DNA from: Candidatus Omnitrophota bacterium
GTDB lineage: Bacteria > Omnitrophota > Gorgyraeia > Zapsychrales > Zapsychraceae
Length of the DNA stretch: 64,000 bases
NCBI GenBank assembly: GCA_018062515.1
Contig: JAGOSC010000001.1
Location: 40,765-104,764 of the forward strand
Direction of reading: 5' to 3'
Part shown: in pieces, positions 1,946-64,000 of the stretch
How positions within the stretch are numbered: the first letter of the stretch is position 1
Layout: every line of letters begins with the position of its first letter
Position numbers and translations under genes: made by a program
Notes under the pieces: model-generated
Told to the model about the DNA's origin: nothing
The model's database searches: none
Seen by the model: only the letters and a program-made list of their open reading frames with translations

Positions 1946-1953
1946 AAACACAT

Positions 1954-3140: not shown

Positions 3141-3185
3141 AAGAAATTTTGATTTGCTTGAACCGCATGCATCGAATAAGCCGGC

Positions 3186-20002: not shown

Positions 20003-20230
20003 CTATCTTATGCTGGACAATTGATCTTCCGTATTTATAACCGCGCCTAATATGAGTGGTAGATTTGTGATTGGGGTGACGTTGATAATGACCGGCATTA
20101 AACCATCATCAATTTGAATATTCTCAAAATTGTATACCTTATTACCCGCGTCAAGATTATTCCCTTGACCTCTAATTTCTAATTCCAATAAATCAAGGCT
20201 AAAATCAACCCCACCTGTAGGACTCTGCGC
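20003..20230 (-). other. Family C-terminal conserved domain of about 70 aa (P1 copy). The same domain ends P2 (34746-34990), P3 (38425-38700) and P4 (54757-55000).
   Basis: Four-way alignment by eye gives GG(I/V)D(F/L)NPxLLDL(E/Q)IxGxG - 20-30 aa - NIxIxxGxxP(V/I)IINxTPxTNxPxLLG, then a short acidic/polar tail. I do not recognise the domain. Confidence 0.7.
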
Positions 20231-44400: not shown

Positions 44401-47400
44401 TTTTACGTCTAAATCTTTCAGCTCAGTGGAATCTAATGTCAATAATTCTTTATGCGCTTCTATCCGGTTAATGGCCCTGTGGTAATACATTAATGTTATA
44501 AATCTTTTAATCCGCTGATTATCGTCACCTATGTACCAATAATCAAGAGCGTCTTTTCCAGTTTCTAAAATATTTTTCGCTTCGTTGAAATCTTCGTTGC
44601 TCAAAGATTTTTCATTACCAGAACGATTCAACCGTGCGTTTAAAAAATAAGCCAGGTCATCCGGTAAATCAATATTACGGAGATTGGGCATTTCAACCGG
44701 TTGTTTAACCGGCTCTATTTTGTTTATCGCAGATGGATTTGATTCGAGAATCGCACTTGAAGCAACGTATTCCGATTCCATCATCCGCTCAAGCTCAGCG
44801 ATTTGACTATTGATCCATTGACTGTTTAGGCCCGCATTTAAATCCTTAAGTTTCTTGATCAAGCTCTCCAATTCAGCCAATTGCGCAAAATCTTTTTCAG
44901 AATTTGATTCTTCATTTACATTTACAGGTGAATTTTTCTTTAATTCTTCCTCAGCATGAGGCAGTTTTAGTTTTTCATCGATCCTAGACAACCATTCACC
45001 GGTAAATTTGTACTGGCCTTTTTCTATAAAGTCATTCTTTACCTGAATACTTAAACGGACTTTCTGGGTTAACAAATTTCGTATTTGTGTAAGCTGAATA
45101 AATTGTTCAGAGTTTTCATCCGAAGCCTCAGGAAATCGCCTTAATAATTTATTAAATAACTTTATTCCCTTTACCTCATTTATACTAACATCCGACAATA
45201 TCGTATTATTGTCGGAATAGTCGGGCGTATTTAGAAAAAAATTAACATGACCGATAAGTCTTTCCAGATCAAGAATGTACAAAAAGCTCTCCAATTGACC
45301 AACGCGCGGTATTGACGACGACTGACTAAAATTAACTTTCAGTTCATTTTCTAGCGCTGCTTCCGCATTTTCTTTTATGATTCTAAGCTCCAGGCGGCTC
45401 TTATCGTTCAAAGGTCTTGTCATTAAATCTTTCAAATCAGCCAACTGTGCGAAATCTTTGTTTGATTCATCAACTTTAGAGGCCGATGTCTTTCTCCTAT
45501 ACTGTCCGCTATACTCTCCGCCGATCACTTTGCTGTGCTCTACGGGTTTCGACGCAACCGTGGTTTTGTCTTGCATTTTTAACTTTTCTAAGATTCCTTC
45601 CAAAATCGATATCATTGCCTCACGTTCCCGCTTTGATTTAAGGCTAATACTATTACTTTCTTTCCTGCTAATTCCTTTTTGCCAATCATCTCTATCACTA
45701 TCCAAATTCCATTTTCCCCAGAATTGACTTATGTACCGCTTAACCTGCTCAATGTCATCTAATCCAGTTAATTTTTTAACCCCTACATATGCTTTAGTAA
45801 GGATTAACAATTTTTCTAACTCATCTTTGTCCCATGGAAATGTGATCTTCTTATGTGTAGTTTCATTAAACACGTGCGGCTCAAGTAGATATTTTAATTC
45901 TACGAGCATTTTGGGGGTTAATTGACTTAATTTATTTGCGGCATCATCAAATGATAAATGCAGCAAATCTGATAATTGCAATTCATCACTATGCCTCGGC
46001 TTTAATTTGTCATCAATCAAGGAAGACCATTTGTCAGTGAATACGTAAAAATGCGGACTCTTAAAGTGGCCAAATCTGGGATCATCAGAGTATTCGTGAC
46101 CAGCGGTTTGAACTTCCTTGGTTAATAAATCCCGTATTCGGAGCAACGGAAAAAATTGTTCCGGTTTATCTTCGGTATAATTAAGCGGAATTCGATTTAA
46201 TATCTGTAACAATATACGTTCACTCGTTTTTTCATTCACGATCACTTCAGATATTACTTTTCTATTTGTTGAATAATCAGCCGAATTCAAAAGAGAATTG
46301 ATGTGATTAATGAACCATTGCAAATCAAGAATATCCAAAAATATATCCGCTTGAACAAATGATGGTGCCTCTTCGTTTCCTGGAGCAATGAAATGCATAA
46401 AAAGTTGCTCTCTTAAGGTATTCTCAGCCTTTTCTTTAATGGATCTAAGTTCCTCGCGGGTCTTGTCATTCAAAGGTGTTGCCATTAAATATTTCAAATC
46501 CGTCACCTGAGCTTGACTTTTATCTAAAGACGTGTCCACATCCCTTTCCGCAGCGATCATGGCCGCATCGGCTTTCAATTTCATCTGAATTTCAGATAAC
46601 TTTGCCACCCATCGATCTCTTGACCATAGGTAATGCTCTTCCAAATATTCTTTAAGAACATCGGTCTGTTCTTCGGGTTTATGTACCATCCAGTACCGGT
46701 TTTTGAGTTCAATTTTTACTATTTTTTCCAGCTCTTTAAGTTCCAGCGGATTCGATTCCGCAATCGGTTTATTCAATAATCGCTTTGTCGACTCGGAAAA
46801 TCTCTTTGCTGTAGCGGCGATTCGTGCTTCTTCCTCTTGAGATAACATAGACTGATCGACGGATGAAGATTTTTGAGGAATAAAAACAGTAATTTTCGGA
46901 TTATCTTTATGATGAGTATCGTTATTCTCGTCGAAAAGAACACGAAAATACATTGGAATTTTTTTATTGATGAGCTCTTGGTATAACTTATGACTAATAT
47001 AAATTTTCTCAACTTCCCAATTTTTTGCGTCTGAAGTTGTGTTAGAAAATTTTAGATAGTTTTGTACGTCAGGATCATTTTTATCGACCTTTTTAAAAGT
47101 TTCTTTACGGAAAACTTGCCTTACTTTGTCTTCAACGACTGCTTCTTCTTTCATAAATTTATTTTGAAAAATAACTCTGGTTCTTTGACTGGGCAGACTC
47201 CATAGTATCCTAAGGTGGTCATTCCTGAAGTTCTCATGAATTTTACCACTCCAACTAAAATTAATTGGTTTACTGCTTTTCGCTTTTTCCTCTCTCGCTT
47301 TTATTTTTCCTTTTATTTTTTCTTCATCCCTTTTCGTTAACGCGCTCATAGTGGCTTGGTCCGAGCCGGCTTGATTTTGTTTTTCATCAGCCGTCATCGC

Positions 47401-50545: not shown

Positions 50546-51898
50546 CTATAACAATTGAACTGTTTGCTGGGCGGATTTAATGCAATCGTTGACCGATACT
50601 CCGTCCCAATAATTCGCGGTGAAATAAATATGAGAATGATGTTTGAGCGCGGATTCAATACAAATCTTCGCCTGATGCCGATGGAGGTCATACTGCGGAA
50701 TAGCGTTTCGCCACGTCTTTAAAAATACGTGAACCGGCTGCCCGGTGAACCCAAGCGTTTCACTGATTTCCCGACGAGCCATAGCGATCAAATCGTCTTT
50801 GGAATATTTTAGGATTTGCGGATGGCGGATGCCTCCGATCATCAACCGGAGTAAACATTGATCCGGCTGGCTGCGGTTCTCAAAAATTTGGTCTTCAAAT
50901 AAAACACCCAGAATGGGACTTTTCTGATTCGATGGTTTTAAATATCCAAACCCTTTGGGCATATTGATAAAGTCTTTTTTCAAACACACAAATCCTATGA
51001 CGGCCAGCGGGGCGTACTTGATTTCATTGAGGCTGGCGGCCAAAACCGGGTCAAGACCATTGAGCATATAGCCCGCCGCGTACGCCGGCACAGCGATAAA
51101 CAGTTCATTCGCCAGGTACATCGTTTCGGCGGTATGCAAAAAATACGGATGATCAGGCTCCTTGTCGATGGATTCAACCTCCTGAGACAAAATAATATCG
51201 TTTCGGTATTTCTCATAAAGAGCGTTTGTCAACGAAACCATGCCGCCGCGCAAAGAATATAATACACGTTTGGCCGGATTTACTTTTCTCTGTTCCGTGA
51301 GGCCCTTTAAAACCGAACCGTGATTTTGTTCATACCCATACAGTTGCGAAAAAGCGTCTTTGAATATGATCGCTTTCGCGTCACCGGCGTAAATGCCGCT
51401 GACCATCGGATCAGCCAAAAAATCTGCCCAATTAGACGACAAACGCCGGCTAACAAACTCATGAACAGTTTCCCTCGAGTTCATCCCTGGTTTAACCAAT
51501 TTCTCTGACAACAAACGAAGTTTATCCTTCATCGTCAAAAAAGGAAAAGCGATTAATTTAAGAGGTGATGTCGGCGCCGGGTAAAGTTTTTGTTCAATAC
51601 ATAAATATCTGGTTTTAGTCGCTTCAGACGCCTCAATCAGTTGATCGCGAATACCAAGGGCGTTGATCAAATCCAATGTGTGCGGCTGATGATTAAGAAA
51701 ACTGCCGGCTCCGGTTTCGAATAAAGCGCCCGCTTCCCTCTCAGAGTTGATGACACCGCCGGCCGTCGGTTTTTTTTCCAAAAGTTTGATCGACATATCC
51801 GGCCTGTTTCTATATTTTTCTTTTAAGAAATGCAGCGTCGATAAACCGCTGATACCGCCACCGATAACGACGATGCTATGATTTAAAGTCATGTTCAT
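50546..51898 (-). CDS. hemY: FAD-dependent protoporphyrinogen/coproporphyrinogen oxidase (HemY/PPOX family).
   Basis: 450 aa; VVIGGGISGLS dinucleotide-binding motif; PPOX-like throughout; 4-bp overlap with hemE. Confidence 0.8.
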   Translation of the reverse strand: MNMTLNHSIVVIGGGISGLSTLHFLKEKYRNRPDMSIKLLEKKPTAGGVINSEREAGALFETGAGSFLNHQPHTLDLINALGIRDQLIEASEATKTRYLCIEQKLYPAPTSPLKLIAFPFLTMKDKLRLLSEKLVKPGMNSRETVHEFVSRRLSSNWADFLADPMVSGIYAGDAKAIIFKDAFSQLYGYEQNHGSVLKGLTEQRKVNPAKRVLYSLRGGMVSLTNALYEKYRNDIILSQEVESIDKEPDHPYFLHTAETMYLANELFIAVPAYAAGYMLNGLDPVLAASLNEIKYAPLAVIGFVCLKKDFINMPKGFGYLKPSNQKSPILGVLFEDQIFENRSQPDQCLLRLMIGGIRHPQILKYSKDDLIAMARREISETLGFTGQPVHVFLKTWRNAIPQYDLHRHQAKICIESALKHHSHIYFTANYWDGVSVNDCIKSAQQTVQLL

Positions 51899-52908
51899 GA
51901 GCTTGTCCTAGGAAACTGATGCACTTGATCCACAATGCGTTTCAATTTATCAGGATCGACGTCGGGAAAAATACCATGGCTGAGATTAAAAATATACCGC
52001 GGGTACCTGCCTCCGCCGATGAGAACATCATTCACTTCCCGACGAAGCTGTTCATGATCAGCGTAAAGTAATCCATTAAATAAATTACCTTGAATACCCG
52101 AATTTGTTTTCTCCAGCACGCGTTCATGGCCAAGCACAACCGTATGATCGACGGATAAAATGTCAGCGCCGCATTGCGTCATGAGTGGTAATAAATGTTG
52201 CGTGTTTTTTAAAAAATAAATCGATGGATGATCAACCGCTTTAAATATACGCTGTATATATGGTAAAACTAATTTCGCATAATCAACGGGACGTAAAATT
52301 CCCGCCCAACTGTCAAATAATTGATATACAGCGACGCCAGCTTCGATTTGTAATTTTAAATATCGAATTGTATTTGTCGTCAAACGATCCATCAGTTGAT
52401 GGAATGTTTGTTCTTGCGTTTGGATAAAACGCAGCGTCTTGGTGAAATTGATCGATGATCCGCCTTCGATTAAATAGGTCGCGACGGTAAATGGCCCGCC
52501 GGCAAAACCGATGAGTGGAATGTGATCAGGTAATTCTTGTAAAACGAGTTTAATCGTCTCGTCGATATAATCCAAATTTTCGAAATCACGCATATGTTTA
52601 AAATCAAGACTCTCGTCGATAAGAGGCCCTTTTTGATTATCAAATGTAATTTGAAAACCCATAGCCTGCGGCAAGGTAAGAATATCAGCGAATAGAATGG
52701 CAGCGTCCACTCCCAAATACCCGATGGGCTGGCACGTAATTTGCGCGGCCAATTCAGGCGTTGTGAACATTTCATTTAAAGAATATTTTTCTTTGATTTT
52801 ACGATATTGGGGTAAATACCGCCCAGCTTGACGCATAAACCAAACCGGGACGGTTTTATTGGTGCCATCAAAAGCTTGTAACAGGAGTGGTTTTTCGGAT
52901 GTGATCAT
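51895..52908 (-). CDS. hemE: Uroporphyrinogen decarboxylase.
   Basis: 337 aa; PVWFMRQAGRYLPQY signature. Confidence 0.9.
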   Translation of the reverse strand: MITSEKPLLLQAFDGTNKTVPVWFMRQAGRYLPQYRKIKEKYSLNEMFTTPELAAQITCQPIGYLGVDAAILFADILTLPQAMGFQITFDNQKGPLIDESLDFKHMRDFENLDYIDETIKLVLQELPDHIPLIGFAGGPFTVATYLIEGGSSINFTKTLRFIQTQEQTFHQLMDRLTTNTIRYLKLQIEAGVAVYQLFDSWAGILRPVDYAKLVLPYIQRIFKAVDHPSIYFLKNTQHLLPLMTQCGADILSVDHTVVLGHERVLEKTNSGIQGNLFNGLLYADHEQLRREVNDVLIGGGRYPRYIFNLSHGIFPDVDPDKLKRIVDQVHQFPRTSS

Positions 52909-52948
52909 CTAACCATCAAATACATTACGTAGGTTTATACCGGATACT

Positions 52949-53311
52949 TTAGCCAGTCTTTTCCGGAGGATTACTTTTGATGAGAGACGTATAAAATTCG
53001 AGGAATCGTTCATAATCAGGTCCTTCACCTTCCAAAATCTGGACGCCAACCATGAAACGGCCGCTATCCCCCACCGCCTTGCACCAGGCGGATTTAACTT
53101 TTATCGTCGCGAGTGTGTCATCACCGAGATCCACGCATAAAAGGATGTCTTTACCGGCCTTAATCGGTTCATGGGTAAAAAAACCAAAACCACCGGAAGA
53201 TACATTCACGATGGTGGCCTCTTGAGTGTATGGCAAATCTTCCGGGATTCCAAACGAAGCGGCCATTTCTATCGGAGAGCGTTGATTAATACGTTTGTTG
53301 TCCATATTCAC
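52949..53311 (-). CDS. PilZ-domain (c-di-GMP-binding) protein.
   Basis: 120 aa; RINQR (RxxxR) and NVSSGG (D/N-x-S-x-G-G) PilZ motifs; 4-bp overlap with hemN. Confidence 0.65.
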   Translation of the reverse strand: MNMDNKRINQRSPIEMAASFGIPEDLPYTQEATIVNVSSGGFGFFTHEPIKAGKDILLCVDLGDDTLATIKVKSAWCKAVGDSGRFMVGVQILEGEGPDYERFLEFYTSLIKSNPPEKTG

Positions 53312-54684
53312 ACCGTCCTTGAAAATCGAGCGTTTAGTTTCTGTTTATTTAGATAAACATCAAAGCCCATACAGATATTGCGGATAAAAATTTTTCCTAA
53401 ATCACTTACATTTATAACATGTTTATCGGCTTCAAGCAAACCATCTTCTATACAATTTTGAATATGCGCCTGTTCTTCGAAAAAATAACCATCAAATAAT
53501 TCGTCAAACCGTTGAGAAAATTCATCCTTATCCAGCCTAAAATGGCACATCAAAGAATTGATGGTAAACTGCCGTATTTTATCGTCCCTGGTCAAACATT
53601 TCCCCCGCTCGACGGGAAGCCGGTTCTGATCTAAAGCGCCATAATAATCTTTAAGAATCTTGTGATTTTGAATAAACGCGTCTTCAATAAATCCTATCGA
53701 CGAGACTCCGACGCCAATATACTCATCGGCCGGCTTGACGGTATAACCCATAAAATTTCTGTATAACCGATTGTTTCGATACGCCTTCGCCAATTCATCC
53801 TCTTTTAAAGCGAAATGATCCATAGCGATAGCCTGATAACCAGCCTCTAAAAGTTGCCGGCGCGCCTGAAGAAAGATATCGATTTTTTCACTGCTCGTCG
53901 GTAATGAAGCTTGATCTATTTTTTTTTGATGTTTTTTCAGCCATGGGACATAAGCAAAACTATATAAAGCAATTCGGTCTGGGCGTAAAGCAATAACTTT
54001 ATCGACGGTGTCATAAAAACTTTTCGTTGTTTGAAAAGGCAATCCATAAATCAGATCAAAATTAATCGACGGAAAACCAAGTAAACGGCAATAATCATAG
54101 AATTCTTTGACTAGTTCGTAGGGTTGAATACGGTTCACCGCTTCTTGAACAGCGACGTCAAAATCCTGAACGCCCATGGAAATACGGTTAAAACCCAAAT
54201 CCTTTAAACTTTTAACTTTTGAGCGGTCAATTGTCCGCGGGTCGATTTCAATGGCGATTTCTCCAGTATAATCAATTTCAAAATGTTCACTCACCTTTTG
54301 AAAAAGTCTTCGGATCTGGTCTTCATTCAAAAATGTCGGAGTTCCTCCCCCCCAATGAAATTGGCGGATATTCTTCCGACGGCCGATATATTGGGAAAGC
54401 AGATCAATTTCTTTAAAAAGATATGTGAGATATTCTTCACCATATTTGTCGTCGTGTTTGCGTAAAATAACGCTACACGCGCAATAGGTGCACATGGTCT
54501 GACAAAAGGGAATATGGATGTATAAGGATAAAGTTTTATCTGATTGGCCGAATGTTTTTAACTTCTCTTGATAAATTGATGAATTAATTTCCTCTGACCA
54601 AACGGGCGCGGTGGGATAACTTGTATAGCGTGGACCAGCGATATCAAATTTCTCAATTGTATGTTTATCAATCTGAAGGGACAT
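53308..54684 (-). CDS. hemN: Oxygen-independent coproporphyrinogen III oxidase (radical SAM, HemN-type).
   Basis: 458 aa; CQTMCTYCAC (CxxxCxxC) radical-SAM cluster motif; full-length HemN architecture. Confidence 0.85.
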   Translation of the reverse strand: MSLQIDKHTIEKFDIAGPRYTSYPTAPVWSEEINSSIYQEKLKTFGQSDKTLSLYIHIPFCQTMCTYCACSVILRKHDDKYGEEYLTYLFKEIDLLSQYIGRRKNIRQFHWGGGTPTFLNEDQIRRLFQKVSEHFEIDYTGEIAIEIDPRTIDRSKVKSLKDLGFNRISMGVQDFDVAVQEAVNRIQPYELVKEFYDYCRLLGFPSINFDLIYGLPFQTTKSFYDTVDKVIALRPDRIALYSFAYVPWLKKHQKKIDQASLPTSSEKIDIFLQARRQLLEAGYQAIAMDHFALKEDELAKAYRNNRLYRNFMGYTVKPADEYIGVGVSSIGFIEDAFIQNHKILKDYYGALDQNRLPVERGKCLTRDDKIRQFTINSLMCHFRLDKDEFSQRFDELFDGYFFEEQAHIQNCIEDGLLEADKHVINVSDLGKIFIRNICMGFDVYLNKQKLNARFSRTV

Positions 54685-54756: not shown

Positions 54757-57700
54757 TTATCTTACGCTGCTCAACATCTCTTCTTCGTTCACTGTCGCAC
54801 CCAAAAGAAGCGGTAAATTGGTGATTGGCGTTATGTTAATGATAATGGGCGATAAACCTTCGCCGATGTGGATATTTTGTAGATTTTGATTAACATTCGG
54901 CGCGTTAAAACTTTGACCTTTTCCTTGAATTTCGAGATCTAGTAAGCCGGGATTAAAATCAATACCACCGACTTCTTTTCCCAATATGCTTTTATCGGAA
55001 TTTTGCATCTCGCTCGCGCCACTCACGTATTTACCAAAAGGAACCTTCGCTTGGTCTGACGGATCTTTGGTCGGGTCTTGGCCAGGTATCGCGTTTGTTT
55101 TCATCTCTTTTCCAATCTTTGCAATTAAATCTTTGGCCTTGTCTTGTAGTCCATCCGCTTCAAAACGATTAAGCACATTTTTTAAAACAGCGTCAGGTTG
55201 AACGAGGGATTCTAACATTGATTTAAGCAAAGTCTCTTCGGATGATAATGTTTGTTCTTCAGCTGTCTGTTTAGATCTTTCTTCTTCAACTAACTTTTTA
55301 TATTGATCTGGCAAGTTACTCATCGTTACTTTTTGATTGACATCGTGACCATATTTGATCGTCAGATTATCCCGATTTTTGTGACGGACCAGAGAACGGT
55401 AAACTCTCTCCATATTATTTTTGATAGTGGCTTCGTCTCTGTAGTTAGGAGCAAAATCATATGAATGAATCTCAATCTTTTTTAAACTTGATACTGTTTC
55501 CAATTGTTCTAAATATGATAAAGAAGGTATGTTTATCTCCTCTAAATTTTCAGGAAAATCTATATTTTCCATATTTAAATTGCGATTATCCGCATCGCGC
55601 AATACTAATTCTTTTAAAAACTTAAAATTTTTCAAATAACTTAAAATCCTTTCTCGAGCGGCATCGTCCATCTTCTCAACAGATAATTTAATATTACTTA
55701 TATTCTCTAAATGACTAGGCCAGGAAAGTATTTTAATTATTGCCTCTGGTTCCAAACCAAAAATACTTAATCCGCTAATTTCTCCTTTTCTATTAAATCT
55801 TAATGTTTCTTTAAGCATCTCCCTCTCAATAGACAGATCTTTGACGGCCGCATCCAATGTCTTTTCACTGTTTAAGGTCATCATATGCCCTTGCGACGTA
55901 AGGATAGCCAAATTATCCCGATTCTTATGATGATTTAAGAAATCTATCAAAAGATCATCCTTAAAACCTGTGGCATACACACTTAAATATTCCAAGTTTT
56001 CCAGGTATTGTAGATTCTTTAATCCGGCTATAGTTATATTTTCTTTGTAAAGGATTAACTCTTTCAGGCTCTTTATTTTTGTTAAATATTTGAAATCGAC
56101 ATCATTATTTTCGTTTGTGGAATATTGTAATTTTTTCAAATTCTTCAGTTTTGGTAAATGCTTAGCTCTATTTTTCATTTCAACATTGTAAAGATATAAT
56201 TCTTCCAAATCATCGCTTAATTGTTCCAACCCAACAAATATTTTATCCATAATTTTTTCGTCGAGAGAACTGTTATCTAAATCTAAAACGAATTTTCCGT
56301 CACTGTTGAGTGTCAATCGTTCTTTACCTAAATTCTTATTAAGACCAAGATTTTCTAAATATTTACGGGCTATGGCCAAACGTTTATCCAAAGCAGCGGA
56401 TGTTTCTTTCGGGTCAGCGATTTTATATTCCGAAGGTACGTCGTCAAGAAATAAAGTTTTACCCGAAGAAGACACAACAGAGAAAATTTTTGGTTCTGGA
56501 GAATTATATTGCATAATAAGTTTAAAAATAGCGTCATCGCTCACCGCAGTATCTTTAAAATTTAAACTTTGTAATATAGGCAGCCCTAATAAATGTTTTT
56601 CTAATCCCACATCAGTCACTTTTGTTCCTTCAAGATCAAGGCTTGACAATCCTAACCCTTTTAAATGCACTAAGCCGTTATCGCTTATATTCGTTCCGTC
56701 TAGGATTAAAATTATTAAATTGGGTAACTCTCTAATCTGGACTAATCCCGCATCGGTCACCTTCGTTTGTCTAAGATTTAATATGCCTAACTTATGCAAA
56801 CTCTTTATATGTGCTAATCCATCATTGGTGACGTTCGTTCCCTTTAAATCCAAACGTACCAAATTGGGCAAATCTTTAATGTACCCTAATCCTGAGTCGC
56901 TCACCATTGTATCGTTAAGCATTAATTCTTTTAAATTCGACATCCCTTTTAAATTCATTAACCCGCTATTGGTCACAGCCATTCCACTAAGATTTAACAT
57001 GTTTAGGTTCGTCAAACGGCTGATATCAGAAAGGATATTGTCAATATCAATAATATCGGCATCTATACTTAATCCGCTTAAATCCAACTTCATAAATTTT
57101 TCCTCACCTAATAAATCAACTCGTTCTTTTATTTCGTTAAGTTTGACAACACCCAAATCTCCTAAAATTTTAATGGCCAAATTCACCTGGTCGTCCAGGC
57201 TGAGCCCCTCTTTCTGTTCCGCGATTTTGTGCTCAGGTAGATCCTTAACTGTAAGTTTAGTATTTGAATCGGTAAGAATTTCCAGATTTTTCTGATTAGC
57301 ATGCTGTTCAATAAATTTCAAAAACGCATCCTTAGATATTCCAGCTTCAAGAAACAATAATTTTAGATTTTTTAAACTTAGTAAATTTGATAGTCCAGCC
57401 TCCGTAATTTTTGTTCCATCAAGATAAAGACTTTCTAAATTTAATTTACTCAAACTTGGCAGCCCGGCATCCGTGACTTTAGTGTTTGTAAGATCCAAAT
57501 GTTTTAAAAATGTTAATTCTTTTAAATATTCTAACCCGTCGTCACTTATATTCGTATCTTTAAGTTCCAAATGTATTAATTTTGTCAAACCTTTTACATG
57601 TTGTAACCCCGCATTACTTATACTTGATCCACTGAGATTTAAAAATTTCAAATCCGTTAAACGGCTGATTTCGGAAAGCTTATTGTCCATTTGATCATTT

Positions 57701-60700
57701 TTGAGACCTGACAAATCCAAACTTATCCATTTCTGTTGAGCGTCATTTCGTATATTTATTCGCCCCTTCATTTCTTCGAGATCTTTTACCCCAAAATCAT
57801 TCAATATTTTTTTGGCTATTTCTTCTTGTTCGTCCAGGCTGAGGGTTTCTTTCTGCCCCGCGGTTTTATATTCCTCAGGCACGTCAGTTATTGTGATTGT
57901 TTCAGTCGGGGAATATATGATTCCTAAATTATCCCGATTTGGATGCTGCACAATAAATTCATAAATAGCTTTATCGGTTAACTGTGTATCGTCACCGACA
58001 TTTACATCTTCCTCTAAATGTGTGTCTGTTCGAAAATGAAGATCCAGGGTTTCCAATTTTTTCAGTGAAATCAGGTATTTTAATCCCGAATCTTGAATGC
58101 GATTGTTCGAAAAAGTCAGTTTCTTTAAATTCGTTAGCTGACCAACCCTGAAAAGAATATTGTCTTCTATTTTATGTTTGCTTCTAAGGTCTAACTCCAA
58201 TTCTCCCTGATCATTGACGTGTAATCGATCCATTGAAATATTTAATTCAAGCAATACTTTTCGAGCTTCAATTATCTGCTCATCCAGAGTGAGGGGCTTT
58301 TTCTGCTCAGCGGTTTTATATTCCTCAGGCACGTCATTTATGGTAATAAGCTTCCCAGAACTTGATATAACAGCCAGATTGTCTCCATTTTCATGTTGGC
58401 TGATAAAATTTTTAATGGCATCATCACTTACTTTCGTAGCTACAAATATCGCAGATCCCAAATTCGGCAATTTATTTAAATACGGCAATGCGGCATCAGT
58501 AACGTTCGTATCAGTCAAATTAATAAACTTCAGATTCAGTAAATCTAAATACTTTACCGATGTATCATCCACTTGGGTATAGTCAAGATATAATGCCTCT
58601 AAAGTCGTCAGAAGACGAATATTGAAAAGCCAAGTATTGATATTACTGTTTGTTAAATTTGATAAAATCACTCCAATAACTTCTTCCTTATCATTTTTTA
58701 TGATTCGATCTTTGATAGCGTCATCCGCAACGTCCAATCCTTTTAATAATTGACGGGCCATGTCCTCAACGGTGAGAGGTTTTTCCTGCTCCGCGGTTTT
58801 GTATTCATCCGGCACGTCATCTATGGTCAAATACGGGCCGCCCGCTCCAACCTCCAATTTTTGATTCGGATGTTGTACTATAAATTTATATATTTCTTCA
58901 TTACTTATATCTGATCTAGAAAAATATAAATTCTCTAAATATAGCAGACCGTTAAAATACTTTAACTTCGAGCTGGTTATGGTTACGCCTCCAAGAAATA
59001 GCCATGTGAGGTCTTTATCTTTTAATCCAGCAAGAACTTGGTCAATATTATTATCATTCAAATCATCTATGTGTGCCTTCAATTTTCCGCCTTCAACCAA
59101 TACAATGGGTTCTTTGATTCCTAAATTTCTTAACAATTCTTTGATCTGTGTCACTTGATCCTTCAAACTAGAAGGTTTTTTCTGCTCCTCGGTTTTGTAT
59201 TCATCCGGCACGTCGCTTATTCCAATCGTCTTACCAGAGGCTGAGATGACTTTCAGGTTATTTCGATTCATATGTTGTCCTAAAAATTTTTTAATATCGT
59301 CTTCACTTACATTCGTTCCAGATAAATCTACATAACGCAAATTTGGTAATTCAAGCAAAGGCGTAAGTCCAGAATAACTCACCTTTGTTCCCCTCAAAAA
59401 CATTGTTTCTAAATTTTTATTATTTAAATATGATAATTCTGAATCACCCACATCTGTGTTAGTAATATCCAATCTTGTCAATTTTTTCAATCCGTTAATT
59501 TGCTCTAAGTCATTCCCCTTTAATTTTAATTTAGTCCCTTGTAAAGTTAAATCTTCCAAAGTATCTAGCCGCGCCACGTCATAAAGTATTTTTGAGAAAT
59601 CTTTATTATCAGCAAATAAACTGAGGGACAATCTAAATAATTCACCTTGAGAGTTGACGCCTATGCGCAAATCACGCCGACCTTTTTCTAAAACTCCTAC
59701 ATCCTTTAATATTTTATGGGCCAGATCTATTTTTTCCTCCACGGAAAGTTCTTTTTTCTGTTCTGTGGTTTTGTATTTATCCGGCACGTCTGTTATGCCA
59801 ATGGTATGGTGCCTTCTTATAAACTTTCCTGACTTAACACTTATCTCATGCGCTAACGTAACTCTTATATTATCCCGATTCTTATGCTGCACAATAAATT
59901 TATAAACAGCTTCATTGCTAACTTGTGTCTCATGAAGATTTATCTCTTCCAAGTTTTCTAAATCTTTAAGAAGGAGGAGGTGTTCATCCGTCAAATTTGC
60001 TATCGAATTAAGAAGCAGATATTTTAAATTTGTCAAACGGTTAACGTCCGAAAGCACCTGACTAATATCATTACTCACCAGGTCAGATAAATTAAATCCT
60101 TCCAACTCTCCAGAGTCGTTCTTCAGTATTCGAGCTTCAACTTTCAAAAAACTCGAGCTAAAAGCCATATTTTTTAATAGTTTTGTGACTAAATCAAGCT
60201 GTTCTTCAGAGCTGAGAACTTCCTTCTGTCCCGCGGTTTTATATTTCTCAGGCACGTCACTAATTTTGTAAACAGTTCCGTTGTCATTTTTTCCCCACCC
60301 GTCCCCATAATATAATTTAACGGATAGATTATTCTGATTTTGATGCTGTCCGATAAATCTTTTAATAGCATCTTCGCTTACTACCTTTTTATAAAACGTT
60401 ACTTCTTTCAAATTCGGCAGTGCCAATAAATATGGCAGTTCGGCATCGGTGAATGCCGGTCCATTAAAGGTCAATTTTATCAAATTCGGAAGACGATTGA
60501 AATTCAGAAATATAGACTTGAGACCTTCAATGTCAAAATTTGATAAATTTAACGTGAATCCTACCCGATCGTATCTTTTTGATATTCGTTCCTCAATGCC
60601 AATCGCTGACTCCCCCTGCTTTTTTAAAATTTCCTGAGTCAGTTTCACCTGTTCATCCAAGCTGAGTTCTTCTTTCTGTTCCGCGGCTTTATATTCATCA

Positions 60701-63700
60701 GGCACGTCTTTTATTGTAATTTCTTTTCCGAATGCATGAACTGTTAAATTATCTCTATTTTTATGCTGCCATATAAATTTCTTTATGGCATCCTCAGTTA
60801 CTTTGGTTCCATTAAGATATAAGTTTTTTAAATTTGACATTAAGATTAAATACTCTAACTGTTTATCGGTTGTATCCGTATCATGCATGTCTAATGTTTC
60901 TAATTCAGTTAAATGCTTTATATCGTGAAAAATTGCCTGTTTCGTTGGCTCTAACAATGCTACACTTAATTCAGTTACTCCATAGTCATTAGTATCCATA
61001 AACAGATTACTTTTTGTAATGCCTAGCTTTTTTAATATTTTAATTGCCAAGTCAATTTGTTCTTGCCTGCTGAGTTTTTCATTCTTTTCCGTTGATTCAT
61101 CTCCAACATTTTCCTTTAATATGACTGAACGCATGACGCCATAGGTATAAACCTCTTCCACTTTGCGCTGAATGTCCTGTAAACTTACCAGTTCAAATGT
61201 ATCGCGCTGAAGGCGGCTGGAAACGTCTTTCTTTATCGCTTCATTCTCGACGGAGGTAGACCGTTGTATGGCTTTTTTAAGGTCGGCGAGTGTAGTGATT
61301 TCGTCAACATAACTGACCGCGTCTGTATATACAGTGAATTTAAATCCTTGTGCAAATAAAAATGCCAAAGCCTCGTCGAGAATCGGATTCCATTTGATTT
61401 CGTTCAAGTTCTCACCCGTTAAAATAATTGTCTTTTTAGAAGTTAAAGGAACACCGCTGCTACTCACATGTGCTTCGGAAGGATTTAGAAAATAGGCTTC
61501 TAGGTCAAATACACCATTCATCCCAAAATCATCACCAGGTGTTTTTTTAATTTGAATAAAGGCGTCCAAAGCCTGATTCAGTTCACTCTGGAACGTTTCA
61601 CTGACTTGAGCCATACGTGGTTGTCGAGGAGTATCTTCTGTTGTACTTCGGGTTAATTTGATTTGCTTGACCGATGGTGGTGTTACGGGCTTAGGATCAT
61701 ATTTTGAGGCTCGATGACTATCTGTATGGACACCCGCCCCATGTCGCCGGCCAATCATTCCTCCCATATCTATTCCTTCTCCAAAGCCATCTCCAAATTG
61801 TTGTCCGAACCCATGTCCTTTTACATCATTCCAAAATTTATCCAGCTTATTTAAAAAACTGTTTGATTTTCCTTTCTGATTCAATGATTCATTCGCCGCC
61901 TGCATTCTTTTTTGTGAAACCTTTCTAATATGACTCTTCAGTCGATTAACTTGACCTATAAGCGTTGACTCCAGATTAGATTTTTGAATTTGATGAATGG
62001 CATCAACAATGTTTCCTTGATAAGACGGATTTTCCAATAATGAAAGCATTTCTTCAAGACGTTCATCTAAAAGACGATATTCATACATTAAGTCCTTAGA
62101 AATTTCGTCTAAAATCCGTTTGATTTTTTGTTCAGTAGGTCGTGTGTTCCGTTTAAGACGATCAGCCAAAGCTTGTTTTTTCTTATTCAACTCAGCTTCA
62201 GTTAATGGCTGATTATTTTGAACAACATGGCTTTCTTCCTCTACATTTTCAACCTCACCCAAATTCCGGATAGCCTCAGCACTGTGGGCGCGTTCTTCCT
62301 CTTTCTCTTCTTCAGAAAGAATTTCTTCCGGTTGTTCTTCCACTGGAATAGATAAATAGTCATTTTCCATTGAGGAAAATAAAATATCCCCGCGAAACTG
62401 CTGATACAAACGTTCTTCTTCATCATTTACCCGCGCGTAAGAAAGCCCTAATTCCCGAGCAGCATCCAAATGTTTTAACGCTAAACGGACCGGATTTATA
62501 GCAAAGACATCATCTAATACACCGGCAAATTGTTCCAGACTCTCGCGTCGATTATTTTTTGCGTGTTCTGGGGTCAACAGAGTATTTGCATAAGTCCATA
62601 ACGTATATTGATACATTGTCCGCATAGTTAAAGGATCATTGCCGTCAATCATCCATTCATCAAATGTTTCAATATCCACGTCGGCTGCCATTTGAGCAAA
62701 ACGTTTTAAACCGTCTGACGGTATACCAAGTACGGAATACTCAAACTCATAACGATGCCCGGCCTCATGACGCAAATCTTCCATATCTTGCTGAAAATCA
62801 CTTCTGAGTACTGAGCGCGTCCGACGGGCATGACTGGTTTCATGGAACATGACATTCTCCCAATAACCATTGATAAATCCCCGCGACCGTTGGACAATTG
62901 CTTTTTGATCTTCCTTCCAATAACCACCACCGTCGTTTGCATCGGCACTGTCCTCCCACACATCAACCTCTCCGTAAAGATCTCCGACCAGATACCAAGC
63001 TATTTTTTTCATCATATTAATTTGCTGGATTTTCAAATCCTTGGCATCTTCCTGGTAATTGATTAATTCCTCGCGAGACGGAAGCTTTTGATTTTTCAAG
63101 AATTTTTGTAAATACAGCTGATAAACAAACTCTTCAGCTATTTTTTCAGGAGATTCACTTGGTAAACCCAAGCGCATATGTAACATACGGAGAAACTCCC
63201 GAGGCGTAGGCTGATGTTCTTTATTTTCAATGTGATTCTGCAGCCATAAATGAATATTCACCATGACCTTAATATCTTCCGTTGATACTTCCTTACCAAC
63301 CATATATGAATCAATAAACTGAACCGCAATTTGCGTTAATTCTTTTTGATTATAACTCCTTAAACGTTTATAAATAACCCGGTTCTGCAAGGCGCTGGAA
63401 AGCTTTTCTCGTCCATGAAAATCCACGGAATTAATGGTGGCAAACAGCGCAAAACCCGGAGCGGCGTTACCAGTCAACACATCATTGAGCCGCCCTTCCA
63501 AAAATCCGCTCGGTAAACGGTTCATTTCACTAATAACAACAATTGATCCTTCTCGTTGCGCCTTCTTGATGAGAGCCACCATTGCATCCGTATCAAAAGA
63601 CGCCGTAATGCGGTAAAAAGTTGTTTCAGGATTTGTTGCAGTTTGCTCTACCGATCCTTCTTTAAATCCATTTTCAGTGAGTGTTTTAACAACACTCACG

Positions 63701-64000
63701 TCCTTACCTTGTCCAGATGGGCCCTCAATAATCATCCCGCGTTTGCCTTGTAATGTCTGCGGATTTTTAACCCGCTCTTGACGCATATTTAAAAAATCTT
63801 GAATATCCGCCGTTAATTCCGCTGTAGAGTCGTTGAAAAAGAATTTATCTTTTTTAAAACGTTCGCCAAATTTTTTTTGAATGTCTGCTATCCGTTGTTG
63901 ATCAAGATCGTTCACTAAAACACCATACTTTTCTCGAATCAAATACGTAAATGCTTTTTTCTCCTCTTCAGAAAAATTTCCTTTATAAATAATCCAAGCG
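54757..64000 (-). CDS. Giant-family protein P4 (more than 3080 aa, 5' end beyond the window): degenerate AAA_5 (MoxR/midasin-like) ATPase module, tandem HExxH motifs, nine leucine-rich-repeat cassettes, family C-terminal domain.
   Basis: The frame stays open from 63942 to 64000 (AWIIYKGNFSEEEKKAFTY-L-IREKYG...), so the track's 'M' is a TTG inside the ORF. GPSGQGKD / IVVISEMNRL / FALFATINSVDF..LSSALQNRV follow the AAA_5 motif order. HETSH at 62830-62844 and HEAGH at 62755-62769. LRRs of the LxxLxLxxTxVTDAGL type. C-terminus GGIDFNPGLLDLEIQGKG...PIIINITPITNLPLLLG. Confidence 0.9.
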   Translation of the reverse strand, partial: AWIIYKGNFSEEEKKAFTYLIREKYGVLVNDLDQQRIADIQKKFGERFKKDKFFFNDSTAELTADIQDFLNMRQERVKNPQTLQGKRGMIIEGPSGQGKDVSVVKTLTENGFKEGSVEQTATNPETTFYRITASFDTDAMVALIKKAQREGSIVVISEMNRLPSGFLEGRLNDVLTGNAAPGFALFATINSVDFHGREKLSSALQNRVIYKRLRSYNQKELTQIAVQFIDSYMVGKEVSTEDIKVMVNIHLWLQNHIENKEHQPTPREFLRMLHMRLGLPSESPEKIAEEFVYQLYLQKFLKNQKLPSREELINYQEDAKDLKIQQINMMKKIAWYLVGDLYGEVDVWEDSADANDGGGYWKEDQKAIVQRSRGFINGYWENVMFHETSHARRTRSVLRSDFQQDMEDLRHEAGHRYEFEYSVLGIPSDGLKRFAQMAADVDIETFDEWMIDGNDPLTMRTMYQYTLWTYANTLLTPEHAKNNRRESLEQFAGVLDDVFAINPVRLALKHLDAARELGLSYARVNDEEERLYQQFRGDILFSSMENDYLSIPVEEQPEEILSEEEKEEERAHSAEAIRNLGEVENVEEESHVVQNNQPLTEAELNKKKQALADRLKRNTRPTEQKIKRILDEISKDLMYEYRLLDERLEEMLSLLENPSYQGNIVDAIHQIQKSNLESTLIGQVNRLKSHIRKVSQKRMQAANESLNQKGKSNSFLNKLDKFWNDVKGHGFGQQFGDGFGEGIDMGGMIGRRHGAGVHTDSHRASKYDPKPVTPPSVKQIKLTRSTTEDTPRQPRMAQVSETFQSELNQALDAFIQIKKTPGDDFGMNGVFDLEAYFLNPSEAHVSSSGVPLTSKKTIILTGENLNEIKWNPILDEALAFLFAQGFKFTVYTDAVSYVDEITTLADLKKAIQRSTSVENEAIKKDVSSRLQRDTFELVSLQDIQRKVEEVYTYGVMRSVILKENVGDESTEKNEKLSRQEQIDLAIKILKKLGITKSNLFMDTNDYGVTELSVALLEPTKQAIFHDIKHLTELETLDMHDTDTTDKQLEYLILMSNLKNLYLNGTKVTEDAIKKFIWQHKNRDNLTVHAFGKEITIKDVPDEYKAAEQKEELSLDEQVKLTQEILKKQGESAIGIEERISKRYDRVGFTLNLSNFDIEGLKSIFLNFNRLPNLIKLTFNGPAFTDAELPYLLALPNLKEVTFYKKVVSEDAIKRFIGQHQNQNNLSVKLYYGDGWGKNDNGTVYKISDVPEKYKTAGQKEVLSSEEQLDLVTKLLKNMAFSSSFLKVEARILKNDSGELEGFNLSDLVSNDISQVLSDVNRLTNLKYLLLNSIANLTDEHLLLLKDLENLEEINLHETQVSNEAVYKFIVQHKNRDNIRVTLAHEISVKSGKFIRRHHTIGITDVPDKYKTTEQKKELSVEEKIDLAHKILKDVGVLEKGRRDLRIGVNSQGELFRLSLSLFADNKDFSKILYDVARLDTLEDLTLQGTKLKLKGNDLEQINGLKKLTRLDITNTDVGDSELSYLNNKNLETMFLRGTKVSYSGLTPLLELPNLRYVDLSGTNVSEDDIKKFLGQHMNRNNLKVISASGKTIGISDVPDEYKTEEQKKPSSLKDQVTQIKELLRNLGIKEPIVLVEGGKLKAHIDDLNDNNIDQVLAGLKDKDLTWLFLGGVTITSSKLKYFNGLLYLENLYFSRSDISNEEIYKFIVQHPNQKLEVGAGGPYLTIDDVPDEYKTAEQEKPLTVEDMARQLLKGLDVADDAIKDRIIKNDKEEVIGVILSNLTNSNINTWLFNIRLLTTLEALYLDYTQVDDTSVKYLDLLNLKFINLTDTNVTDAALPYLNKLPNLGSAIFVATKVSDDAIKNFISQHENGDNLAVISSSGKLITINDVPEEYKTAEQKKPLTLDEQIIEARKVLLELNISMDRLHVNDQGELELDLRSKHKIEDNILFRVGQLTNLKKLTFSNNRIQDSGLKYLISLKKLETLDLHFRTDTHLEEDVNVGDDTQLTDKAIYEFIVQHPNRDNLGIIYSPTETITITDVPEEYKTAGQKETLSLDEQEEIAKKILNDFGVKDLEEMKGRINIRNDAQQKWISLDLSGLKNDQMDNKLSEISRLTDLKFLNLSGSSISNAGLQHVKGLTKLIHLELKDTNISDDGLEYLKELTFLKHLDLTNTKVTDAGLPSLSKLNLESLYLDGTKITEAGLSNLLSLKNLKLLFLEAGISKDAFLKFIEQHANQKNLEILTDSNTKLTVKDLPEHKIAEQKEGLSLDDQVNLAIKILGDLGVVKLNEIKERVDLLGEEKFMKLDLSGLSIDADIIDIDNILSDISRLTNLNMLNLSGMAVTNSGLMNLKGMSNLKELMLNDTMVSDSGLGYIKDLPNLVRLDLKGTNVTNDGLAHIKSLHKLGILNLRQTKVTDAGLVQIRELPNLIILILDGTNISDNGLVHLKGLGLSSLDLEGTKVTDVGLEKHLLGLPILQSLNFKDTAVSDDAIFKLIMQYNSPEPKIFSVVSSSGKTLFLDDVPSEYKIADPKETSAALDKRLAIARKYLENLGLNKNLGKERLTLNSDGKFVLDLDNSSLDEKIMDKIFVGLEQLSDDLEELYLYNVEMKNRAKHLPKLKNLKKLQYSTNENNDVDFKYLTKIKSLKELILYKENITIAGLKNLQYLENLEYLSVYATGFKDDLLIDFLNHHKNRDNLAILTSQGHMMTLNSEKTLDAAVKDLSIEREMLKETLRFNRKGEISGLSIFGLEPEAIIKILSWPSHLENISNIKLSVEKMDDAARERILSYLKNFKFLKELVLRDADNRNLNMENIDFPENLEEINIPSLSYLEQLETVSSLKKIEIHSYDFAPNYRDEATIKNNMERVYRSLVRHKNRDNLTIKYGHDVNQKVTMSNLPDQYKKLVEEERSKQTAEEQTLSSEETLLKSMLESLVQPDAVLKNVLNRFEADGLQDKAKDLIAKIGKEMKTNAIPGQDPTKDPSDQAKVPFGKYVSGASEMQNSDKSILGKEVGGIDFNPGLLDLEIQGKGQSFNAPNVNQNLQNIHIGEGLSPIIINITPITNLPLLLGATVNEEEMLSSVR
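56400..60760 (-). repeat. Nine tandem coding cassettes in P4 (each about 130-200 aa): LRR block, FIxQHxNRDNL, then DVPDEYKTAEQK-xLSLDEQ linker. The linkers are near-identical at DNA level.
   Basis: A core of about 33 nt (ctgctccgcggttttgtattcatccggcacgtc and variants) recurs at about 56440, 57225, 57870, 58321, 58790, 59180, 59760, 60225 and 60675, each encoding DVP(D/E)EYKTAEQK on the minus strand. Confidence 0.85.

What the first reader, a model, noticed from the sequence alone, without database searches (positions are those of the whole stretch)
54757..64000. P4 combines a degenerate AAA_5 ATPase, tandem HExxH motifs, nine LRR cassettes and the family C-domain. Its 5' end lies outside the window.
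The track's start at 63942 is TTG in an open frame, so the true N-terminus is upstream of this window. Within the window the order is: an AAA_5/MoxR/midasin-like module (about 63330-63790) with a non-canonical Walker A (GPSGQGKD) and Walker B (ISEMN); two closely spaced HExxH motifs (HETSH, HEAGH); then about 1500 aa of modular LRRs of the TxVTDAGL type. Midasin-like AAA with LRR arrays on a secreted or anchored giant protein suggests a mechanochemical adhesin or effector scaffold. The non-canonical motifs suggest a regulatory rather than catalytic ATPase.
Basis: partly seen in the sequence, partly recalled or inferred. Interest (0 to 1): 0.75.

Follow-up and report, generated by a model that had tools for sequence, protein, structure and literature searches.

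The report
Bacterial midasin-like AAA giant protein
The window holds the last 3,080 residues of an Omnitrophota giant protein from a large, undescribed bacterial family built on midasin-type AAA ATPase modules, here followed by a probable zinc protease, eleven leucine-rich-repeat domains and a phylum-specific tail; tandem midasin/dynein-type AAA arrays have been regarded as a eukaryotic invention.

Summary

The odd Walker motifs (GKD; S-E-M-N) are not decay. They are conserved across about 55 homologues from several phyla, together with an invariant Walker-B Glu, sensor-1 Asn and Arg.

In every full-length homologue this module is the last of at least five tandem midasin-type AAA modules. A canonical one (GxPGTGKS/DEANL) sits about 300 residues upstream. 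The window therefore cuts P4 between two AAA modules, and about 1,350-1,410 residues are missing, probably including the family N-domain with a signal peptide.

Only the first HExxH is family-invariant. With a conserved E/D on the next helix it looks like a small zincin peptidase.

Best reading: an ATP-driven, LRR-targeted remodeller/protease that is exported or delivered. Where it acts is unresolved. The upstream DNA could not be retrieved.

The parts
54757..64000 (-). P4 coding frame as far as the window shows it: 3,080 codons plus stop, 5' end cut by the window edge
   Evidence: no stop between 63999 and 54760; the TTG at 63942 is internal to an open frame
63760..63999 (-). Residues 1-80: helical segment that in homologues links the lid of the upstream canonical AAA module (AAA-1) to AAA-2 (motif AWxxYxGxFxxEE)
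   Evidence: helices 2-78; L003 ...ALAWNVYRGNFSQEEQE follows its AAA-1
63319..63759 (-). AAA-2 alpha/beta core, residues 81-227, midasin-type AAA_5
63700..63723 (-). Variant Walker A, GPSGQGKD (Asp in place of Ser/Thr)
   Evidence: K-D in 52 of 56 family sequences
63520..63540 (-). Variant Walker B, VVISEMN (Ser in place of Asp; catalytic Glu kept)
   Evidence: Glu 56/56, Ser at the preceding position 42/56
63379..63432 (-). Sensor-1 Asn190 (ATIN) to Arg207 (ALQNR)
   Evidence: both 56/56 conserved; aligned with midasin FATQN...NRF
62980..63318 (-). AAA-2 helical lid region, residues 228-340
   Evidence: AF2 helices 218-342; conserved H250, W252, P264-T265, R267
62500..62979 (-). Zincin-like HExxH domain, residues 341-500: three strands, the HExxH helix, then a helix carrying E407/D408/R410/H411
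   Evidence: H386, E387, H390, D408 invariant and E407, R410 at 90% or more in 22 sequences; AF2 secondary structure E346-350, E359-362, E367-371, H380-393, H401-418; weak zincin hits only
62830..62844 (-). HETSH, the family-invariant HExxH
62755..62781 (-). E407-D408-L-R-H411-E-A-G-H415: conserved LEDLRH helix; the second HExxH is specific to P4 and L003
61690..62442 (-). Acidic / coiled-coil and Gly-rich linker, residues about 520-770
   Evidence: sequence; no Pfam family
61075..61689 (-). Family-conserved middle domain of unknown fold, residues about 770-975 (YG.EG.LD..RF..DP...F..SGG...K..V)
   Evidence: alignment of 49 homologues; colinear with L003 and L004 up to P4 residue about 970-1000; no Pfam or VWA hit
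55252..61074 (-). Eleven LRR cassettes, residues about 976-2916. Each has an N-terminal helix (xLAxKILKxLG), LRRs of the LxxLxLxxTxVTDxGL type, a cap (DAIxKFIxQHxNRDNL) and a charged linker (DVPDEYKTAEQKKxLSLDEQ). A loose regex found 0-6 LRR-like units per cassette; the repeat count per cassette was not determined.
   Evidence: Pfam LRR_4 E=1e-14, LRR_6 E=1e-7; cassette boundaries and aligned caps
54760..54969 (-). Family C-domain (GGIDFNPGLLDLEIQGKG...GLSPIIINITPITNLPLLLG) plus a short acidic tail
   Evidence: shared with P1, P2, P3; 173 database proteins at E<=1e-3, the named ones from Candidatus Omnitrophica/Omnitrophota except one labelled Candidatus Bathyarchaeia archaeon (P0016)

Best explanation
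P4 is the C-terminal roughly two thirds of a giant protein of about 4,400-4,500 residues from a Candidatus Omnitrophota genome.

It belongs to a large, uncurated bacterial family. A search of 50%-identity cluster representatives gave 1,137 hits at E<=1e-3. Members occur in Omnitrophota, Elusimicrobiota, KSB1 and FCPU426, with distant relatives in Endozoicomonadaceae and some Burkholderiales.

The conserved core of the family is a single-chain array of midasin-type AAA_5 modules: three without P-loops, then a canonical one (AAA-1), then the variant one seen in the window (AAA-2).

Shown:
- AAA-2 is a real AAA+ domain.
- Its unusual motifs (Walker A GK-D, Walker B S-E) are conserved together with the catalytic Glu, the sensor-1 Asn and an Arg.
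- It is followed by a conserved HExxH...ED domain with zincin-like secondary structure, an acidic linker and a conserved domain of unknown fold.
- In P4 these are followed by eleven LRR domains and the Omnitrophota-specific C-terminal domain.

Inferred:
- The Thr-to-Asp (Walker A) and Asp-to-Ser (Walker B) changes are a swap of the hydroxyl/carboxylate pair around Mg2+, so AAA-2 probably still binds nucleotide.
- AAA-1, just outside the window, is the main motor.
- The modules pack into a midasin/dynein-like ring.
- The LRR domains capture protein targets, which the ring remodels and the adjacent zincin cleaves. Alternatively, the zincin processes P4 itself.
- Most full-length homologues begin with a signal-peptide-like segment, and the periplasm has no ATP. 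The protein therefore most likely acts after delivery into another cell. Omnitrophota include episymbionts and predators, and the distant relatives sit in animal symbionts. A pre-export cytoplasmic role cannot be excluded.
For: Frame and motifs.

Midasin specificity: the AAA-2 profile hits midasin at E=1e-16, with dynein next at 0.02. The AAA-1 profile hits midasin at E=5.8e-27 across its six modules, with the next hits at about 1e-7 on the P-loop only.

Family size and position of the module: where the module lies at residues about 1,000-3,200 of proteins of 2,000-7,700 aa.

Canonical AAA_5 upstream: Pfam E=1e-15 to 1e-19. P-loops are about 297-309 aa apart.

Extra P-loop-less modules: hhalign probabilities of 92%, 66% and 96.5%.

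Motif conservation: K-D in 52/56 sequences; Glu, Asn and Arg in 56/56; the single K-S sequence has D-E.

HExxH domain.

Closest relative L003: 47.5% identity over 998 aa, and it carries AAA-1, AAA-2, both HExxH motifs, an LRR cap and the C-domain.

N-domain plus C-domain in homologues. Signal-like N-termini.

Source taxon.

Precedent for a MoxR-type AAA working with a peptidase as an ATP-dependent degradation system: PMC3495828.
Against: - P4's own upstream sequence could not be obtained, so AAA-1, the P-loop-less modules, the N-domain and the signal peptide are inferred from homologues only.
- P4 alone is below Pfam's AAA_5 threshold.
- No curated peptidase family matches the HExxH domain significantly, and its fold was not searched separately.
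- Only five AAA-like modules were detected, not six. Ring closure is untested.
- No VWA/MIDAS domain was found.
- Nucleotide binding by a GKD/SE site has no precedent known to me.
- A signal peptide and an ATPase in one protein is an unresolved topological conflict.
- AAA-2 appears to lack the pre-sensor-1 hairpin that midasin modules have (gap in the alignment).
Confidence: 0.5

Rival explanations
1. Surface adhesin or scaffold. The protein is exported. The LRR domains bind a partner cell or matrix. The C-domain anchors it. The AAA array is a structural or nucleotide-independent relic.
For: Signal-peptide-like N-termini in homologues. Long array of 11 LRR domains. C-domain shared by many Omnitrophota giant proteins. 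Published reading of Omnitrophota giants as surface or effector proteins (10.1101/2023.11.21.568195; 10.64898/2026.06.07.730766).
Against: Catalytic-type residues of both P-loop modules are under strong conservation across phyla, which a relic would not show. The HExxH site is invariant. No adhesin-type domains or TM anchor occur in the window part.
Confidence: 0.2
2. Cytoplasmic or inner-membrane-face quality-control or assembly machine, like FtsH or a MoxR chaperone. The N-terminal hydrophobic segment only tethers it. The LRR domains recruit the cell's own substrates for ATP-dependent remodelling or proteolysis.
Against: Positive charges precede the hydrophobic segment in P1-P3 and in homologues, which predicts export of the bulk. 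Multi-copy distant relatives in animal symbionts look effector-like. TM-scores to FtsH are low, 0.26-0.31.
Confidence: 0.2
3. NLR-like immune sensor: NTPase plus LRR sensor plus protease effector, acting in anti-phage or anti-invader defence.
For: The architecture of NTPase, protease-like domain and LRR array superficially resembles NLR/Avs proteins.
Against: No PADLOC family matched. The NTPase is AAA_5/midasin-type, not STAND. The domain order, the signal peptide and the giant multi-AAA core do not fit. No defence-island neighbours were seen.
Confidence: 0.05

Closest known systems
Midasin (Rea1/Mdn1), eukaryotic ribosome-maturation AAA+ protein
   Same: The AAA_5 modules are specifically closest to midasin's (E=1e-16 and 5.8e-27). 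Shared signatures are ELNL...LE.LN..L and FATxN...GR..LS.A..NRF. In homologues several modules are concatenated in one giant chain, some without P-loops. An acidic linker is followed by a protein-binding C-terminal part.
   Different: Bacterial. Five detectable modules rather than six, and only two with P-loops. No MIDAS/VWA domain was found. Homologues have a signal-peptide-like N-terminus. A zincin-like domain and an LRR array replace midasin's linker/MIDAS. AAA-2 carries the GKD/SE swap and seems to lack the pre-sensor-1 hairpin.
MoxR-family AAA+ (RavA, CbbQ, NorQ) with VWA partners and, in some operons, transglutaminase-like peptidases
   Different: MoxR proteins are single-module subunits that form homohexamers. 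They have canonical Walker motifs and separate VWA partners. By sequence the P4 family is far closer to midasin than to any MoxR structure.
FtsH (AAA+ fused to an M41 HExxH zinc protease)
   Same: One chain with an AAA+ module followed directly by a helical HExxH domain whose third ligand lies on a later helix. FtsH chains are among the structural hits.
   Different: FtsH has a classical-clade AAA, a membrane anchor with two TM helices, and forms a homohexamer. No sequence match to M41 was found. TM-scores are low.
Omnitrophota giant proteins (West-Roberts et al. 2023; Nielsen & Lui 2026 preprints)
   Same: Same phylum. Same paradox of signal peptides on proteins that carry cytoplasm-type enzymatic domains. 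AAA_5 is listed among the domains seen in such giants.
   Different: Those studies treat proteins of 10,000 aa or more and the archaeovorin/dockerin or multi-enzyme classes. I found no mention there of the N-/C-domain family, the tandem midasin-type core, the Walker swap or the LRR cassette array.

Membership tests
Pfam AAA_5 (PF07728; dynein/midasin/MoxR-type AAA) | HMM score at or above the gathering threshold (22 bits) | tested here: not met
   17.5 bits, E=0.0043, residues 90-207, seen only when the first 400 aa are scanned alone
Pfam AAA_5 (PF07728; dynein/midasin/MoxR-type AAA) | Homology to bona fide AAA_5 modules shown by profile search | tested here: met
   22-sequence family profile vs PDB: midasin E=1e-16, with three midasin modules aligned. 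AAA-1 vs AAA-2 hhalign: 95.6%, E=1e-8.
AAA+ superfamily | Alpha-beta-alpha P-loop core with 5-1-4-3-2-type strand content, followed by a helical lid | tested here: met
AAA+ superfamily | Canonical Walker A GxxxxGK[ST] and Walker B hhhhDE | tested here: not met
   GPSGQGKD and VVISEMN. This is a family-wide conserved variant: K-D 52/56, S-E 42/56, Glu 56/56.
AAA+ superfamily | Sensor-1 polar residue and a conserved Arg after strand 4 | tested here: met
   N190 and R207 are conserved 56/56
Midasin/dynein-type single-chain AAA ring | Six AAA modules concatenated in one polypeptide | tested here: inconclusive
   Only one module lies in the window. Full-length homologues show five detectable modules. 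A sixth module and ring closure were not shown.
Midasin | C-terminal MIDAS (VWA) domain | tested here: not met
   No VWA family in P4, P0122, P0123, P0129 or the middle region
Midasin / pre-sensor-1 insert clade | Pre-sensor-1 beta-hairpin between helix 3 and strand 4 | tested here: inconclusive
   The alignment shows midasin residues inserted where AAA-2 has only about 8 residues. AAA-1 of homologues has an insert-length segment. This was not checked on coordinates.
Zincin metallopeptidases | HExxH on a helix, with a third metal ligand on the following helix | tested here: met
   H386, E387, H390 and D408 are invariant; E407 is at 90% or more. The helices are 380-393 and 401-418 and follow three strands. 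Ligand roles are inferred.
Zincin metallopeptidases | Significant match to a curated peptidase family or solved peptidase | tested here: not met
   Best hits: Reprolysin_5 at 0.002 (1 member), DUF6782 at 0.0097 (3 of 22), SprT-like at 0.017, IrrE at E=1.2
Leucine-rich repeat proteins | LRR HMM above threshold and a repeated LxxLxLxxN/T-type unit | tested here: met
   LRR_4 at 54.6 bits (cut-off 27), LRR_6 at 31.8 bits (cut-off 23.4); 11 capped cassettes
Omnitrophota giant-protein family of this window (P1-P3), uncurated | C-terminal GGIDxN...PVIINxxPxxNxPxLLG domain | tested here: met
   BLASTP P4 vs P1 2e-12, vs P2 6e-6, vs P3 6e-4; alignment
Omnitrophota giant-protein family of this window (P1-P3), uncurated | N-terminal domain of about 350 aa with a signal-like segment | not testable with these tools
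   It lies outside the window and the upstream DNA was not retrievable. It is present in homologues P0123, P0132, P0143, P0149, L004 and others.
STAND/NLR-type defence NTPases | STAND NTPase domain or a match to a known defence family | tested here: not met
   No PADLOC hit; the NTPase is AAA_5-type

The most novel reading that the evidence does not exclude
P4 represents a widespread bacterial lineage of single-chain, midasin-type multi-AAA ring machines, fused to peptidases and target-binding repeats. They use a previously undescribed, functional Walker A/B 'hydroxyl-carboxylate swap' nucleotide site. If these are sister to, or ancestors of, the eukaryotic midasin/dynein lineage rather than a late transfer from eukaryotes, then the concatenated AAA ring arose in bacteria. 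The published view places the six-tandem array early in eukaryotic evolution, derived from MoxR (PMC3495828).
Probability: 0.3. Interest if true: 0.85.

Novelty: new variant of a known kind. Interest (0 to 1): 0.66.

Why it matters
Concatenated dynein/midasin-type AAA arrays are textbook eukaryotic machines. Their origin is usually traced to single-module bacterial MoxR proteins.

A large bacterial family with five or more tandem midasin-like modules in one chain gives a concrete, testable candidate for an intermediate, or for a parallel invention.

The GKD/SE site is conserved across phyla. It is a natural experiment on how a P-loop site coordinates Mg2+.

For Omnitrophota biology, the shared N- and C-domains on four giant genes in one 64-kb window, and on many other proteins of the phylum, point to a common export, sorting or assembly route for these giants.

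An ATPase-protease-LRR member suggests what some of them do to partner cells.

Tried and rejected
Recovering P4's 5' end failed by every route tried:
- A protein-pattern scan of GTDB genomes found nothing.
- An exact 50-mer and a protein scan of JGI metagenomes found nothing.
- An exact look-up of the 3,080-aa product was not on record.
- A word-index search with the P4 N-terminus found only one KSB1 fragment.
- A search with the upstream part of the closest relative, hoping to catch a separately called P4 fragment, found only two unrelated partial proteins.
- Neighbour-gene look-ups returned short Logan/NCBI contigs or shorter copies.

The KSB1 homologue cannot fix the N-terminus because its frame is open at its own contig end.

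Other attempts that led nowhere:
- The first AF2 run with two sequences was too poor to use, pLDDT 45.9.
- The afdb50 fold library was unavailable.
- NCBIfam gave only sub-threshold noise.
- Rfam found nothing in the window.
- PADLOC found nothing.
- Pfam found nothing in the linker or middle domain and no VWA.
- A sixth AAA module was sought downstream of AAA-2 and in the N-domain and not found.
- A6, the alignment of 97 more distant hits, could not be loaded into the sandbox. The motif counts therefore rest on 56 sequences, plus the A6 consensus.
- There is no synteny between P4's neighbours and those of L003 or L004.
Full report
**What is in the window**

On the minus strand one frame runs from the window edge (codon 1 at 63999) to a stop at 54757-54759. 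That is 3,080 codons with no stop. The TTG at 63942 is only the first start-like codon of an already open frame.

- GPSGQGKD at residues 93-100.
- VVISEMN at residues 154-160.
- HETSH at residue 386.
- HEAGH at residue 411.

Two HExxH within 30 residues arose in 0.03% of shuffles.

The last 70 or so residues (GGIDFNP...PIIINITPITNLPLLLG) are shared with the three other giant ORFs of the window: P1 20003-28264, P2 34746-38357 and P3 38425-50334. Those three also share an N-terminal domain of about 350 residues behind a signal-peptide-like segment.

The repeat region holds eleven cassettes, not nine. They span residues about 975-2916. Each ends in a cap (DAIxKFIxQHxNRDNL) followed by a charged linker (DVPDEYKTAEQKKxLSLDEQ). 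Pfam sees LRR_4 (E=1e-14) and LRR_6.

**Source**

Housekeeping proteins of the window are identical to proteins of an NCBI MAG named Candidatus Omnitrophica/Omnitrophota bacterium, on a contig of 111,417 nt. The neighbours are haem biosynthesis genes, cytochrome c maturation genes, MoeA and GDPD, all on the same strand.

P4 itself is not in the protein collections searched. Its upstream DNA could not be recovered.

**Is the N-terminal module an AAA_5?**

On its own P4 barely registers. Nothing appears when the whole protein is scanned. When the first 400 residues are scanned alone, AAA_5 scores E=0.0043 and 17.5 bits, below the 22-bit cut-off. A word-index search found one relative only.

An exhaustive HMM search of cluster representatives changed the picture. 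It gave 1,137 proteins at E<=1e-3 and 54 at E<=1e-30. Almost all are 2,000-7,700 residues long.

A profile of 22 of them matches midasin at E=1e-16 across three of its AAA modules. Dynein follows at about 0.02, and MoxR-type chains were not among the hits at E<=1.

**Are the Walker motifs degenerate?**

No. Counts over 56 family sequences:
- Lys-Asp at the end of Walker A: 52 sequences.
- Ser before the Walker-B Glu: 42 sequences (Arg or Lys in 9).
- Walker-B Glu, sensor-1 Asn (N190) and the Arg of the NR motif (R207): all 56.

The one sequence with Lys-Ser in Walker A has Asp-Glu in Walker B. The more distant group of 97 hits has the same consensus, GRGKD / ISELN.

My inference is that the usual hydroxyl (Walker A Ser/Thr) and carboxylate (Walker B Asp) around Mg2+ have changed places. 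On that view the site is a maintained variant, not a dead one. This is untested.

**What lies beyond the window, from homologues**

In every full-length relative the P4-type module (AAA-2) is preceded by a canonical AAA_5, here called AAA-1. It has GxPGTGKS, VDEANL and TGNQE, with Pfam E=1e-15 to 1e-19. Its P-loop lies 297-309 residues upstream of the AAA-2 P-loop.

An AAA-1 profile hits midasin at E=5.8e-27, touching all six of its modules. The next hits, at about 1e-7, match only the P-loop.

Further upstream, profile-profile comparison finds three more AAA_5-like modules without P-loops (probabilities 92%, 66% and 96.5%). None was found downstream of AAA-2 or in the N-domain.

The closest relative is L003, from a MAG labelled Planctomycetales. 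It is 47.5% identical to P4 residues 1-968. It carries AAA-1 (GSPGTGKS) 205 residues before the position that matches P4's first in-window residue. It also carries AAA-2, both HExxH motifs, an LRR cap and the C-domain.

P0123 (3,240 aa) has the complete layout of N-domain, AAA-1, AAA-2 and C-domain.

From P0123, L003 and L004 I estimate that 1,350-1,410 residues of P4 are missing. That gives a protein of about 4,400-4,500 residues.

Most full-length homologues begin with a signal-peptide-like segment. The window part of P4 has no TM helix.

**The HExxH region**

Only the first motif is a family feature. H386, E387, H390 and D408 are invariant, and E407 and R410 are nearly so, in 22 sequences (W.....HExSHGxFTR...LYQDLEDLRH).

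The second HExxH exists only in P4 and L003.

The model has three short strands, the HExxH helix, and a following helix carrying E407/D408. That is the layout of a small zincin.

Database support is weak and scattered, but it all points to zincins: DUF6782, Reprolysin_5, SprT-like, M50B, MPTase-PolyVal and IrrE. None is significant.

I treat it as a probable metallopeptidase, not a proven one.

**The rest of the protein**

Residues about 520-770 are acidic, coiled-coil and Gly-rich. Residues about 770-975 are conserved across the family but match nothing, and in particular no VWA/MIDAS domain.

The C-domain profile finds 173 proteins. The named ones are Omnitrophica/Omnitrophota, apart from one labelled Candidatus Bathyarchaeia archaeon (P0016). 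They include a 153-aa J-domain protein and a giant with FBPase/PGM domains.

The C-domain is therefore a widely used tag in this phylum. Its role, whether sorting, secretion or assembly, is unknown.

**Distribution**

Relatives with the full AAA-2/HExxH region occur in Omnitrophota, Elusimicrobiota, FCPU426 and KSB1.

AAA-only matches occur in several copies in Endozoicomonas, Sansalvadorimonas and Parendozoicomonas genomes, and also in Parashewanella and some Burkholderiales.

Distant cluster representatives of about 2,400 aa (P0170, P0212, P0241) carry a transglutaminase core instead of the zincin/LRR part. Their organisms were not named by the look-up, so assigning them to those gammaproteobacterial genera is an inference.

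**Mechanism**

The best-supported reading is an ATP-driven remodeller/protease:
- A single-chain array of midasin-type modules provides the motor. AAA-1 is the canonical motor and AAA-2 a specialised second site.
- A zincin sits next to the motor.
- A string of eleven LRR domains captures targets.

This fits the earlier proposal that MoxR-clade AAA modules work with peptidases as degradation systems (PMC3495828).

The place of action is unresolved. A signal peptide predicts export, yet ATP is absent outside the cytoplasm. Delivery into a partner cell is the most economical reconciliation. A surface scaffold role or a cytoplasmic role remains possible.

No defence-system family matched.

**Novelty**

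Neither Pfam/NCBIfam nor the papers I could search describe this family, its Walker swap or the tandem bacterial midasin-type core.

The published view is that the six-tandem AAA arrangement arose early in eukaryotes from MoxR (PMC3495828). A large bacterial family with five or more tandem midasin-like modules bears directly on that view.

For P4 itself, the tandem array is inferred from homologues, not seen.

Noticed in passing
window 20003-28264 (-), P1: A giant protein of 2,753 aa with the same N- and C-domains as P2 and P3. It carries a Peptidase_M48 domain (E=7e-13, residues 514-599) and an ABC1 atypical-kinase domain (E=6e-20, residues 2089-2339): another peptidase plus ATP-using domain behind a signal peptide.
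   Followed up: partly
window 38425-50334 (-), P3, and 34746-38357 (-), P2: Proteins of 3,969 aa and 1,203 aa with the shared N-domain (51-56% identical among P1-P3) and C-domain. Neither has a Pfam family at E<=0.001; P3's best hit was Treslin_M at E=0.00099, below its cut-off, and P2 had none at E<=0.01.
   Followed up: partly
C-domain family; L041 4001-4462 and L042 1-4243: The C-terminal GGIDxN...PVIINxxP domain also ends a 153-aa J-domain protein and a giant of 2,176+ aa with FBPase/PGM domains. The 80-aa 'protein' P0087 is a miscalled tail of that giant, overlapping its end. Many short hits are probably fragments of this kind.
   Followed up: partly
window 56306-57295 (+): A 329-aa TTG ORF lies antisense to the LRR region of P4. 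It is most likely an artefact of the repetitive, AT-rich coding strand opposite.
   Followed up: no
window 17591-18625, 50546-54684 and 30966-33991: Haem biosynthesis genes (ferrochelatase, HemY-like oxidase, HemE, HemN-like radical SAM) and cytochrome c maturation genes (CcsA/ResB-like) are interleaved with the four giant genes, all on the minus strand.
   Followed up: no
L022-L036, L040 (Sansalvadorimonas, Endozoicomonas, Parendozoicomonas and other Oceanospirillales-type genomes): The GKD/SE-type AAA module occurs in several copies per genome in these marine-invertebrate symbionts, for example six loci in one Sansalvadorimonas MAG. Distant cluster representatives of about 2,400 aa carry a transglutaminase core, but they were not tied to these loci or organisms.
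   Followed up: partly
P0122, P0127, P0128, P0133, P0135 N-termini: A second type of N-terminal region occurs in the family instead of the P1-P3 N-domain. It has a signal-like segment followed by a conserved 'hhhIQDxH...AQxNI' motif.
   Followed up: no
L001 (Logan SRR11088468_314981) vs window 54757-62600: An independent assembly of what appears to be the same organism breaks inside P4, holding only the last 2,614 residues. The P4 protein is also absent from the protein collection although its neighbours are present. The gene may be hard to assemble, or may be annotated as a pseudogene or partial in the public record.
   Followed up: partly
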